From positions 43,276,001 to 43,340,000 of the forward strand of contig OZ024749.1 of assembly GCA_964016885.1 (NCBI GenBank): a stretch of 64,000 nucleotides of DNA. The letters run 5' to 3'. The DNA comes from Eledone cirrhosa. Taxonomy: Eukaryota. Position numbers and translations under genes: made by a program. Below, in pieces: positions 3,072 through 55,921 of this stretch (its first letter is position 1; each line of letters starts with the position of its first letter). Below the pieces are notes generated by a model that was not told the origin of the DNA, made no database searches, and was given only the letters and a program-made list of their open reading frames with translations.

Positions 3072-3074
<3 letters not shown>

Positions 3075-3235
3075 CGAAGGAAATGTGGTAAGGAACCAGG
3101 TGGACCATAACGCACCAAAGTACTCAATACTTGAGGTAGTAGAGTGGGTAATAGGAACCAGTAAGACCCCGACAGCTAATTCTATTAGCCGTCGAAACGG
3201 CTTGAGCTCAGCTGTCGGGGTCTTACTGGTTCCTA
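3072..3235 (-). mobile_element. TA-embedded fold-back element family A, copy 1
   Basis: Tail TAACGAAGGAAATGTGG...GGAACCAGTAAGACCCCGAC plus an inverted arm ending ACTGGTTCCTA. (TA)n on both sides. Confidence 0.85.
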
Positions 3236-3249
3236 TATATATATATATA

Positions 3250-3391
3250 TAGGAACGAGTAGGACCCCGACGGCTGAGCTCAAGCCGTTTCGACGGCTAA
3301 TTCTGGACTAATTAGTCACTCTATTACCCTAAGTATTGAGTACTTTGGTGCGTTATGCTCCATCTGGTTCCTTACCACATTTCCTTCGTTA
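3250..3391 (+). mobile_element. Fold-back family A, copy 2 (internally deleted)
   Basis: Inverted arm TAGGAACGAGTAGGACCCCGAC... followed by tail ...CATTTCCTTCGTTA, within (TA)n. Confidence 0.85.
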
Positions 3392-4677: not shown

Positions 4678-4839
4678 TAGGAAAATGTTTAACCCCGACG
4701 GCAGAGCTCAAGCCGTTTCTGGAGTCCAGAAATAGCCGTCGAAACGGCTTGAGCTCTGCCGTCGGGGTTAAACATTTTCCTATTACCCACTGGTGCGTTA
4801 TGGTCCATCGGGTTCCTTACCTTACCACACCTCCTTCGT

Positions 4840-4840: not shown

Positions 4841-4897
<57 letters not shown>

Positions 4898-4901
<4 letters not shown>

Positions 4902-5095
4902 AACGAGTAGGACCCCGACGGCTGAGCTTAAGCCGTTTCGACGGCTAATTCTGGAGGTAGTCCAGAATTAGCCGTCGAAACGGCTTGAGCTCATCCGTCG
5001 GGGTCCTACTCGTACCTATTACCCACTCTACTACCCTAAGTATTGAGTACTTTGGTGCGTTATGGTCCACCTGGTTCCTTACCACATTTCCTTCG

Positions 5096-5098
<3 letters not shown>
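4898..5098 (+). mobile_element. Fold-back family A, copy 4
   Basis: About 58-bp inverted arm plus a full long arm and tail, within (TA)n. Confidence 0.9.
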
Positions 5099-5151
<53 letters not shown>

Positions 5152-5172
5152 GTGGTTGCACAACAGTTAGTT

Positions 5173-5223
5173 CACCATACCGAGAACAATTGTTTCACCT
5201 TAGCGGATATTCAGCTCGGGGTG
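5173..5223 (-). ncRNA. Minimal type I hammerhead-like motif with a core variant
   Basis: Minus strand: CCGAG-CTGAATA-tCCgctaaGGt-GAAAC-AATT-GTT-CTCGG. Stem I is perfect and stem III is palindromic (ACAATTGT). The core G8 is replaced by U. Confidence 0.6.
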
Positions 5224-5274
5224 TGCATGGACTGAGTGCTCTACCACTACGCATATTACCTTCCAGTGTTCCAC

Positions 5275-5315
<41 letters not shown>

Positions 5316-15326: not shown

Positions 15327-15770
15327 CATGGTGGCTGCCAACTCATTTTCGTGTACGGCCACTACTTTATATCCATGTAGGAGAACCCCTACCGATGCTT
15401 AAACAAGTGTGACTTTTTAGTCCAGCCAGCGACTTGAAAACTCTGGTACAAACACTTCACCTGTGACAATTATTGACACATAGTGCTGGGCCCATGGCAC
15501 CATGTGACGACAAGTGCAGAGAGATCTCCAGATATAAAGTAATGCCTGTGCCGTGAAGCTTTTATAGTGAGCAAAGGCACTGCACAAAGCCAGTCCCACT
15601 CTCTTAACCAAGAGCTTAAAAGCTTCACGCCACAGGCATTGTCTTATATCTGGAGATCTCTCTGCACTTGTCGTCACATGGTACCATGGGCCCAGCACTA
15701 TGTGTCAATAATTGTCACAAGTGTAGTGTTTGTACCAGAGTTTTCAAGTCGCTGGCTGGACTAAAAAGTC
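15327..15770 (-). mobile_element. Probable RTE-like LINE 3' end with about 154-bp inverted duplication
   Basis: Arms at 15411-15564 and 15617-15770. Translation gives [16 protein letters not shown](H/R), a C2H2-like motif found at some RTE ORF ends. The tail ends in (ATGT)n. Confidence 0.65.
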
Positions 15771-15781
15771 GCATACATACA

Positions 15782-24686: not shown

Positions 24687-24689
<3 letters not shown>

Positions 24690-24821
24690 CGAAGGAAATG
24701 TGGTAAGGAACCAGGTGGACCATAACGCACCAAAGTACTCAATACTTGGGGTAGTAGAGTGGGTAATAGGAACCAGTAAGACCCCGACGGCTTGAGCTCA
24801 GCCGTCGGGGTCTTACTGGTT

Positions 24822-24824
<3 letters not shown>
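24687..24824 (-). mobile_element. Fold-back family A, copy 5 (inversion centred on the stem III hairpin)
   Basis: ...GACCCCGACGGCTTGAGCTCAGCCGTCGGGGTC..., within (TA)n. Confidence 0.88.
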
Positions 24825-39857: not shown

Positions 39858-40241
39858 GCTTATATAGAGAGAAGGCCCAACCACTCGGATACGATAGATA
39901 GATAGATACATAGATAGATAGATATAGCAATATATATATGAAGGCATATACGATATGCTTTTCTATAAAATACATATAACAGTCTCGTTATAAATATTTT
40001 AAGGTGTGAACTTTCCAGCATATATATTATAAAGACTCGGAATCCGACGGCTGTGCTCCTGCATTCCAACAGCTAGCTCTAGACTGTTTGCCAAAAGACG
40101 CGAGTAATTTGTTTTAGACAAAAAACATTTTTGTACATGATTCACTCTCCTGTGGTGAGTTTAGAACGTTTACCAATGAGTTCGTATGTACCTTAAAGTA
40201 TCAGAATCTACCTGATGAATGTTGTCGACACACACCCTAAT

Positions 40242-40615
40242 AATTGTTTCTATTTTAGGCACAAGGCCAGCAATTAACCAGTGCATTACTGGTACTTTAT
40301 TTTATCGACCCCGTAAGGATGAAAGGCAAAGTTAACCTCGGCGGGATTTGAACTCAGATCGTAAAGGGACGTAACTGTGCTGCAAAGCATGGCGTCCGAT
40401 CCTCTACTGATACTGCCAATCACAAAATAATTGTTTCTACTTTAGGCACAAGGCCAGCAATTACCCAGTGCATTACTGGTACTTTATTTTATCGACCCCG
40501 TAAGGATGAAAGGCAAAGTTAACCTCAGCGGGATTTGAACTCAGATCGTAAAGGGACGTAACTATGCTGGAAAGCATGGCGTCCGACCCTCTACTGATAC
40601 TGCCAATCCACCGCC
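40242..40615 (-). mobile_element. Head-to-tail SINE family 1 dimer inside one TSD
   Basis: Copies at 40242-40421 and 40429-40615. 17-bp TSD ACACACA(C/A)CCTAATAAT at 40228-40244 and 40619-40635. Confidence 0.9.
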
Positions 40616-51247: not shown

Positions 51248-51470
51248 TAGGAACCAGTAGGACCCCGACAGCTGAGCTCAAGCCGTTTCGACGGCTAATT
51301 CTGGACTAAAATCCTAATTCTGGACTTTTTAGTCCAGAATTAGCCGTCGAAACGGCTTGAGCTCAGCTGTCGGGGTCCTACTGGTTCCTATTACCCACTC
51401 TACTACCTCAAGTATTGAGTACTTTGGTGCGTTATGGTCCACCTGGTTCCTTACCACATTTCCTTCGTTA
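51248..51470 (+). mobile_element. Fold-back family A, copy 6
   Basis: About 63-bp arms with a duplicated centre, plus the full tail. Confidence 0.9.
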
Positions 51471-55688: not shown

Positions 55689-55921
55689 ACGAAGGAAATG
55701 TGGTAAGGAACCAGGTGGACCATAACGCACCAAAGTACTCAATACTTAGGGTAGTAGAGTGGGTAATAGGAACAAGTAAGACCCCGACGGCTGAGCTCAA
55801 GCCGTTTCGACGGCTAATTCTGTACAGCTCAAGCCGTTTCGACGGCTAATTCCATAATTCCAGTACAGAATTAGCCGTCGAAACGGCTTGAGCTCAGCCG
55901 TCGGGGTCCTACTTGTTCCTA
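55687..55921 (-). mobile_element. Fold-back family A, copy 7
   Basis: Full tail, duplicated central segment, and an inverted arm ending TTCCTA. Confidence 0.9.

What the first reader, a model, noticed from the sequence alone, without database searches (positions are those of the whole stretch)
4898..5098. Family A is a beheaded hammerhead, with inversion centres on ribozyme stems II and III
Seen: the sense arm reads ...GTCCAGAATTAGCCGTC-GAAA-CGGCT-TGAGCTC-AGCCG-TC-GGGG (consensus; this copy has ATCCG). That is the GAAA box, a stem III with a palindromic loop, and a GUC site. The CUGANGA half is missing in all 7 copies and is replaced by the inverted arm. In six copies the symmetry centre lies just 5' of GAAA (predicted stem II), and in copy 24687-24824 it is the stem III hairpin itself. 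Centre sequences differ between copies, while copy-specific variants are mirrored in both arms (CGAGT/ACTCG, ACAAGT/ACTTGT, AAAATGTTTAA/TTAAACATTTT). Inference: the inversion arises independently at each insertion, when nascent cDNA snaps back on the ribozyme hairpin and self-primes.
Basis: partly seen in the sequence, partly recalled or inferred. Interest (0 to 1): 0.8.

Follow-up and report, generated by a model that had tools for sequence, protein, structure and literature searches.

The report
Back-to-back Penelope transcript-start copies
These short hairpin-shaped repeats are pairs of fragments of a very abundant Penelope-type jumping gene joined back to back in TA repeats; each fragment was likely copied separately from the capped front end of the element's RNA, which likely starts inside its predicted self-cutting ribozyme and would explain the missing half, giving a testable model for how such elements insert.

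Summary
The seven window copies are real and lack the ribozyme's 5' half. They are ends of an abundant Hydra-clade Penelope-like retrotransposon (717-aa RT/GIY-YIG ORF, 3,531-bp unit). It carries a complete type I hammerhead with core YUGANAA; canonical CUGANGA occurs in 9 of 5,834 matches. Paired insertions join two fragments head-to-head in (TA)n, ending at two fixed sites 80 nt apart (22,881 and 16,754 exact junctions). Snap-back fits poorly: the tail-less arm reaches at least 5 nt further in 17 of 60 pairs, and in two long insertions neither arm can be copied from the other. 'Mirrored' variants are subfamily markers; private ones are one-sided (26 vs 1). Arm starts pile up at the A of TTAGTC in stem II, often with an extra G (55 G vs 5 C), and three such copies read on towards the ORF. 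Best reading: both cut target ends prime cDNA at the two sites near a capped transcript start, run off, and are end-joined. A minor class starts at the predicted cleavage site. No RNA data were available. The scan noted two-ended priming before on other families; its look-ups held no note of the capped start.

The parts
4842..4899 (.). (TA)n target tract, left of the focal insertion
4900..4955 (-). Tail-less arm (A): element +58 back to +3. It starts at fixed site A, where the element reads on as TAT, matching the target
   Evidence: site A/TA junction 16,754 exact matches genome-wide
4956..4957 (.). Non-templated filler GG at the head-to-head joint
4958..5096 (+). Tailed arm (B): element position 0 to +138, ending at fixed site B
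   Evidence: site B/TA junction 22,881 exact matches
4958..4962 (+). TAGTC; A at 4959 = +1, the inferred capped transcription start inside hammerhead stem II
   Evidence: 5'-end pile-up, extra G; inferred, no RNA data
4969..5016 (+). 3' half of the type I hammerhead: stem II 3' strand, GAAA (4977-4980), stem III with palindromic loop (4980-4998), predicted cut after 4999, stem I 3' strand
   Evidence: fold and pairing of long parent copies; cleavage inferred
5017..5096 (+). 80-nt PLE 'tail' between priming sites A and B
   Evidence: tail concept from PMC11167929
5097..5148 (.). (TA)n target tract, right of the focal insertion
4680..4839 (+). Family copy, another subfamily: A arm 4680-4719 (to +19), filler TGG, B arm from +1 (G directly before) with an internal deletion in the tail
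3074..3233 (-). Family copy: B arm from +35, A arm from +9 (asymmetric)
3252..3389 (+). Family copy: A arm to -1, B arm holding little but the tail; may be a later deletion
24689..24823 (-). Family copy centred on stem III; loop polarity comes from the tail-less arm
51250..51468 (+). Family copy: both arms to -2, 17-nt filler that largely duplicates arm sequence
55689..55919 (-). Family copy: arms to +2 and +1, 36-nt filler that duplicates arm sequence

Best explanation
Family A consists of paired, head-to-head fragments of a Hydra-clade Penelope-like retrotransposon in (TA)n, likely made when both ends of a cut target prime reverse transcription at two fixed internal sites of the element's RNA and the two short cDNAs likely run off a capped RNA start inside the predicted hammerhead before being end-joined. 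Steps: (1) shown: one arm ends at +58, the other at +138, and both sites read on as TAT. (2) inferred: the element's RT/GIY-YIG protein cuts both target strands and each 3' end primes one cDNA. (3) inferred: the mRNA starts at the A of TTAGTC, so its 5' copy of both sites lies only 58 and 138 nt from the cap; priming there gives 'strong-stop-like' cDNAs that lack the core 5' half (-42..-36) and often end in a cap-copied base. (4) inferred: the two cDNA 3' ends are joined bluntly, by 1-4 nt microhomology or with templated filler, hence a different centre at each locus. (5) inferred: read-through RNAs hold the whole ribozyme and are sometimes cut at GUC, giving a minor class that starts at +42. 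Whether one RNA or two sister RNAs serve as template is open.
For: Parent: ORF with Hydra-clade motifs and exact 3,531-bp tandem units. Two ends: 5 of 5 long insertions examined have one A end and one B end in opposite orientation; 60 of 100 consecutive site-B insertions on C1 had a facing A arm found by script. Independent arms: A reaches at least 5 nt further in 17 of 60, B in 10 of 60, and 7 of 60 share no sequence. In L061 and C1:395.7 Mb neither arm can be a contiguous copy of the other. Joints from the A-arm end to positions beyond +58 also occur in contigs of 3 of 3 runs laid (one study, possibly the source sample). RNA start: 39 of 100 B arms and 27 of 60 A arms start at -3..+3; only 9 of 100 and 3 of 60 start further upstream. 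TA-joined arms with a G/C base: of the first 100 of 211 listed, 55 read TAT-G-AGTCC, 5 TAT-C-AGTCC and 3 TAT-G-TAGTCC; the same pattern at +93..+95 found 3 in the genome. Both arms reaching +1 (727 loci; first 50 read): filler C..G 12, G..C 0, single C/G 18, single A/T 3, none 8, other 9. Three of 4 copies with G before +1 that read past site B start at +1 with no upstream element sequence and reach +225 to +320. Cleavage class: 28 of 56 distinct TA-joined loci start at +42, 17 with no extra base. In vitro precedent: a lizard PLE cuts and extends both strands and starts RT at two internal sites bounding the tail (PMC11167929).
Against: No RNA run holds the element in the index, so the start site and the cap are inferred from DNA only. 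ATATAT is followed by G far more often than by C in this genome (82%), so 55:5 alone is weak (p=0.035 against that background, 2e-10 against the G/C share before A). The count of TA-joined +1 starts without an extra base was not obtained. Among 74 arms reaching +1 in unselected loci the preceding base was T 41, C 16, G 13, A 4, so there is no G excess where the partner arm or a TCAGT subfamily sets that base. The CAG/CTG fillers (9 of the 12 C..G cases) could be templated slips. Some asymmetric pairs may be later deletions of unstable palindromes (window 3252-3389 looks like one). No partner was found for 40 of 100 site-B arms (2 had a B-type partner scored apart in one case, several missed by the script, many truly solo). 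None of the 5 long insertions starts at +1. The parent hammerhead shows no compensatory changes, a folding z-score of 0.07 and no Rfam match; about a quarter of cores have a C3.A8 mismatch (24 of first 100).
Confidence: 0.72

Rival explanations
1. Two-ended priming as in the best explanation, but the pile-up at +1 is a reverse-transcriptase stall in the long stem II of the ribozyme, not an RNA 5' end.
For: +1 lies in the predicted inner hairpin of stem II. There are no RNA data. G after ATATAT is common in this genome, and there is no G excess in the mixed sample.
Against: Starts cluster near the top of the hairpin, not at its base where an RT reading 3' to 5' would meet it. The extra G is specific to +1 (55 vs 3 at position 0) and polarised in double-arm joints (12:0). 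cDNAs jump to other templates at +1/+2 (L145, L274, L287, L288).
Confidence: 0.13
2. Snap-back self-priming (first reader; akin to the self-priming idea in PMC3846280): one cDNA folds back on a ribozyme hairpin and copies itself to make the second arm.
For: Arms of one locus are far more alike than arms of different loci. Near-symmetric centres are common. One of 4 stem-III-centred copies (L037) and 2 of 5 long insertions are compatible. Templated fillers show some fold-back or re-priming during joining.
Against: The tail-less arm reaches further than the tailed arm in 17 of 60 pairs; 7 of 60 share no sequence. L061 and C1:395.7 Mb cannot be self-copies. Loop polarity is wrong in 3 of 4. Many centres have 0-3 nt between perfect arms, too tight for a priming hairpin.
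Confidence: 0.08
3. The short palindromes are a separate non-autonomous (SINE- or MITE-like) family, amplified from short master copies or from one ancestral inversion.
For: Short copies outnumber long ones: about 40,000 exact end junctions against 5,834 core 5' halves (patterns of unequal stringency). An internal promoter could let short copies be transcribed (internal promoter in fly Penelope, PMC2377424).
Against: Centres differ at nearly every locus. A and B arms form no separate groups. The main short-copy subfamily types are also found in long copies. G+1 copies read on towards the ORF.
Confidence: 0.07

Closest known systems
Hydra clade of C-terminal EN+ Penelope-like elements (Craig et al. 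2021, PMC8557442; section 11, passages and supplement part 2 read)
   Same: Single ORF with C-terminal GIY-YIG; RWR, DKT, CxCx5C, CxxC and CxH motifs; (TA)n targets; hammerhead near the 3' end; inverted 5'-truncated copy and tail.
   Different: Unit 3.5 kb (described: generally under 3 kb). Tail 80 nt (PLE tails described as 30-40). Core YUGANAA, whereas 26 of 26 Hydra rows in file S2 read CUGANGA. The hammerhead differs from Hydra-1_Obim. Most insertions are short fragments starting at one point.
Poseidon PLE of Anolis, PAc (Frangieh et al. 2024, PMC11167929; parts 1-2 of 4 read)
   Same: Both target strands cut and extended; two internal RT start sites bounding the tail; predicted dimer; uncleaved RNA is the main template.
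   Different: Another clade. The parts read do not link two-strand priming to inverted arms or describe run-off at a capped start. Here both start sites have TA microhomology to the target.
Head-to-head PLE palindromes of Adineta vaga (Arkhipova et al. 2013, PMC3846280; passages)
   Same: Inverted pLTR with a palindrome at the junction; tail on one end only.
   Different: Explained there by self-priming on an antisense template; the arm asymmetries here argue against self-priming.
PLE hammerheads incl. the U3-A8 variant of Schistosoma Cercyon (Cervera and de la Pena 2014, PMC4209133; passages)
   Same: Type I fold, long helix II with unpaired base at its 5' end, G10.1-C11.1, palindromic loop 3, U3-A8 core, pairs on opposite strands.
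   Different: Stable 6-bp stem III, about 45-nt stem II insert that holds the inferred start site, and a C3.A8 subfamily.
L1 twin priming (recalled; paper not held)
   Same: Both target ends prime cDNA; inversion joined by microhomology.
   Different: L1 arms copy different parts of one RNA from a variable internal site; here two fixed sites give overlapping arms.
Animal non-LTR retrozymes (PMC7229834 passages; bioRxiv 10.64898/2026.07.22.740005 part 1 of 5)
   Same: Short, non-coding, hammerhead-related, PLE-linked repeats.
   Different: Family A is not a tandem unit with a whole ribozyme; it is fragments of a coding PLE.

Membership tests
Penelope-like element, EN+ | Single ORF with RT and GIY-YIG endonuclease | tested here: met
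   717-aa ORF from ATG with FDI and YRDD RT motifs and VIY...YIG; 2,049 homologues among 7,996 scored, best hit carries PF01541. Direct Pfam scan gave 0 families.
Penelope-like element, EN+ | Tandem or partial-tandem units plus inverted 5'-truncated copy, tail at one end | tested here: met
   5 of 5 long insertions
Hydra clade | RWK-like, DKT, CxCx5C linker, CxxC and CxH around conserved E and N, C-terminal EN | tested here: met
   RLRWR 35, DKT 117, CNCPDRSIC 572, CNLC 670, CKH 698 against section 11
Hydra clade | Insertion into (TA)n | tested here: met
Hydra clade | Canonical hammerhead (CUGANGA core) | tested here: not met
   Hammerhead topology present, core YUGANAA; 9 of 5,834 are CUGANGA. 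Read as a variant, so filed as a variant of the clade.
Hydra clade | Placement in an RT tree with reference Hydra families | not tested
   Reference proteins were not available as tool sequences
Type I hammerhead ribozyme | Three stems around the core, GAAA, NUH triplet | tested here: met
   MFE fold of L073:3222-3350; 95% of cells paired in 9 sequences, 24-53% when slid
Type I hammerhead ribozyme | Watson-Crick 3-8 pair in the core | tested here: inconclusive
   U3:A8 in 76, C3.A8 mismatch in 24 of first 100 listed; U3-A8 is a known natural, active variant (PMC3088659 passages)
Type I hammerhead ribozyme | Compensatory base changes in stems | tested here: inconclusive
   0 of 22 pairs change on both sides; sequences too alike. 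No Rfam hit.
Type I hammerhead ribozyme | Self-cleavage at GUC | not testable with these tools
   Indirect only: 28 of 56 TA-joined loci start at +42
Non-LTR retrozyme | Tandem non-coding units each with a whole hammerhead | tested here: not met
   Short copies are single head-to-head fragments without the 5' core; tandem units carry the ORF

The most novel reading that the evidence does not exclude
The inverted-arm-plus-tail scar of Penelope-like elements is the normal product of two-ended target-primed reverse transcription from two fixed internal sites. Because initiation is internal, the enzyme mostly fires at the copy of those sites next to the mRNA cap, filling the genome with tens of thousands of 'strong-stop' palindromes. 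The promoter also gates the ribozyme: transcription starts inside stem II, so the mRNA's 5' copy cannot cut itself and only read-through RNA can.
Probability: 0.55. Interest if true: 0.7.

Novelty: new variant of a known kind. Interest (0 to 1): 0.5.

Why it matters
How PLEs form inverted repeats and tails is named as an open problem in PMC8557442, and the published guess for head-to-head palindromes is self-priming (PMC3846280). This family gives tens of thousands of natural products and many near-identical copies with open ORFs. It lets the two models be told apart by counting and by a simple in vitro assay. It also offers a reason why a conserved ribozyme is seldom used on the template, and shows that MITE- or miRNA-like palindromes in such genomes can be by-products of a coding retroelement.

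Tried and rejected
Rfam: only low-scoring miRNA-type matches among the 150 of 316 rows shown for the window and no hammerhead match to the parent. Pfam: no family for the ORF or its pieces. RNA runs: no RNA holder listed, which says nothing on expression. An early idea that C3:G8 and U3:A8 covary inside the genome was dropped: G8 copies are 26 sporadic cases, and the first search had selected them. Collision of the B cDNA with the A primer on one RNA: not supported; the 7 non-overlapping B arms start at 67-106, not at +59. Full-length linear copies from +1: none among 5 long insertions or the 4 matches. A formal arm tree was not built; distances and a permutation test were used. Rows dropped: 6 of 73 pairs for short coverage; duplicate rows of one locus. 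Counts were made by eye on the first 100 rows listed (C1 onwards). Paper searches: 'twin priming'+'Penelope' listed 3 papers, none on PLE insertion by title or abstract start, not read; 'octopus'+'Penelope'+'hammerhead' 4 listed; cap/extra-G searches 0; others. The library misses most subscription papers, so absence from print is not shown. Cap copying by RT, the TCAGT/TTAGT initiator and L1 twin priming are recalled, not read (not held). Supplements of the 2026 preprint were not seen and may bear on PLE end structures.

Full report
Observation. The window is AT-rich, microsatellite-dense animal DNA from a 3.0-Gb assembly, G000:C9. The focal copy reads (TA)n, a 56-nt inverted arm (4900-4955), GG, a 139-nt sense arm (4958-5096), (TA)n. 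Seven copies lie in the window and none has the 5' half of a hammerhead core. Only three are near-symmetric about stem II; the others are asymmetric or centred on stem III. I number from the A of TTAGTC (+1 = 4959): the predicted cut follows +41, site A is +58, site B is +138, and the core 5' half starts at -42.

The parent. A gapped pattern search found copies that continue upstream. One led to a 3.75-kb head-to-head insertion holding a GIY-YIG C-terminus. That protein piece has 61,792 first-look candidates in the genome, and many listed matches sit in long open frames. Tandem arrays have a 3,531-bp unit with a 717-aa ORF from ATG. The ORF has RT motifs and the RWR, DKT, CxCx5C, CxxC and CxH motifs that define the Hydra clade of Penelope-like elements (PMC8557442 section 11), which also target (TA)n. 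A protein search gave 2,049 relatives among 7,996 scored, mostly about 40% identical and unnamed. The published octopus member Hydra-1_Obim has a different hammerhead, so this is another family. No tree was built.

The ribozyme. Long copies fold into a type I hammerhead: stem I, a 7-nt core strand, G10.1-C11.1 closing a long stem II, GAAA, a 6-bp stem III with palindromic loop, and GUC. The core is YUGANAA: of the first 100 of 5,834 matches, 76 are U3:A8 and 24 C3.A8, with all four bases at position 7. Only 26 have G8 and 9 are canonical. U3-A8 is known from a Schistosoma PLE (PMC4209133 passages) and as an active natural variant (PMC3088659 passages). Against over-reading: no Rfam match, z = 0.07, no compensatory changes. 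Indirect sign of cutting: among 56 distinct TA-joined loci starting between +35 and +44, 28 start at +42 (17 with no extra base; 6 of these could borrow GG from a stub of the other arm, and 4 of the other 11 could be CpG decay), 6 at +40/41 and 9 at +38/39. This class is minor: 2 of 100 tailed arms.

Two fixed ends. Exact site-B/TA junctions number 22,881 and site-A/TA junctions 16,754, with 0 in reversed controls. In tandem arrays both sites are internal and read on as TAT. All 5 long insertions examined, chosen for ORF content, have one A end and one B end facing head-to-head. This matches the PLE 'tail', which in vitro is the stretch between two internal RT start sites, with both target strands cut and extended (PMC11167929).

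Snap-back versus two cDNAs. A fold-back cDNA can only make a tail-less arm contained in the tailed arm. I mapped the first 100 site-B insertions on C1. A facing A arm was found for 60. It reached at least 5 nt further than B in 17, B further in 10, and 7 pairs share no sequence. End calls are uncertain by a few bases, and later deletions may explain some cases; window 3252-3389 looks like one. Long insertions are firmer: in L061 the A arm has about 600 nt that B lacks and B has the tail that A lacks; C1:395.7 Mb is similar; C2:78.8 Mb is borderline; two are compatible with either model. In 3 of 4 stem-III-centred insertions, including window 24689-24823, the loop comes from the tail-less arm, though deletion could also give this. 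Arms of one locus differ by 4.5%, against 10.0% A-A, 12.2% B-B and 11.1% A-B between loci (0 of 2,000 permutations as low); 62 of 67 pairs share a subfamily against 19 expected; private variants are mirrored once and one-sided 26 times.

Why beheaded. 5' ends pile up at -3..+3 (39 of 100 B arms, 27 of 60 A arms), with few further upstream (9 and 3). Where an arm joins (TA)n directly with a G or C, the first 100 of 211 matches show TAT-G-AGTCC 55 times, TAT-C-AGTCC 5 times, G before +2 10 times and G before position 0 3 times. A matched pattern at +93..+95 has 3 matches in the genome, although 2 of the 100 mapped arms start there on TA. Where both arms reach +1 (727 loci), the first 50 have C..G fillers 12 times and G..C never, a single C/G 18 times and a single A/T 3 times. 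Three of four copies with G before +1 that read past site B begin at +1 with no upstream element and reach +225, +320 and +235; two also show a jump from the 5' end onto another position. I read this as run-off at a capped mRNA start in an initiator-like TTAGT/TCAGT (cap copying and the initiator motif are recalled knowledge; fly Penelope starts in its upstream pLTR from an internal promoter, PMC2377424). Cautions: G follows ATATAT in 82% of G/C cases in the genome; in unselected loci the base before +1 was T 41, C 16, G 13, A 4, set partly by the partner arm and a TCAGT subfamily; only 2 of 5 unselected TA-joined starts near +1 have a G; CAG/CTG fillers may be templated slips; and there are no RNA data.

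Mechanism. Shown: the element, two fixed ends with TA microhomology, independent arm lengths, unique centres, a pile-up at +1 with extra G, a smaller one at +42. Inferred: double-strand cut in (TA)n, priming from both ends, a capped start at +1, joining of cDNA 3' ends by blunt, microhomology or templated-filler end joining, occasional ribozyme cutting of read-through RNA. Confidence 0.72; stall in stem II 0.13; snap-back 0.08; separate short family 0.07.

Comparison and novelty. Inverted copies, tails, hammerheads and (TA)n targeting are known PLE traits (PMC8557442), and self-priming was already proposed (PMC3846280). I found no paper linking two-ended priming to the inverted arms or describing run-off at a cap inside the ribozyme (searches), within a library that lacks most subscription papers. 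Earlier notes of this scan reached a two-ended reading for other families in the same genome; I saw them after forming mine and they are not independent support. Look-ups by this sequence and by the cap idea returned nothing. Verdict: a new variant of a known kind, interest 0.5.

Noticed in passing
window 5149-5278 (- strand): A second hammerhead-like PLE-type end sits in the same TA tract, right after the focal copy. It reads CTGAATA...GAAAC here; a related locus reads CTGAAGA (row), and the family is also upstream of L288.
   Followed up: partly
L076/L077 = G000:C1:~91,489,170-91,492,740: At the 5' end of a 4.5-unit arm, a 55-nt piece of the ORF (+1755..+1812) is repeated about 65 times, nearly all identical, just before the inverted arm. 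This is either reiterative, telomerase-like copying by the RT or a later minisatellite expansion.
   Followed up: no
L040, upstream of the match: A related short head-to-head family (ends GAAAAG..., stem III GGCCGGAGCTCAGC) whose two arms also begin at (T)AGT but differ from each other at several sites; a possible two-template case.
   Followed up: no
L145, L274, L287, L288: cDNA appears to jump from +1/+2 to an unrelated position of the element (3' UTR, ORF, +225, +320), a route to partial tandems.
   Followed up: partly
L072-L074 = G000:C1:437,198,000-437,214,400: About 4.6 tandem 3,531-bp units at 99.9-100% identity with open ORFs: a very young array, from a tandem source or a circular RNA.
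   Followed up: partly
L019, L020, L153: Some insertions have the tail on both arms (B plus B), so the A-plus-B rule has exceptions.
   Followed up: no
window 40239-40608: Two tandem copies of a 187-bp SINE-like repeat, 96% alike.
   Followed up: no
window 15408-15773: Inverted repeat with 157-nt arms, 95% complementary, 52 nt apart; not family A by BLAST.
   Followed up: no
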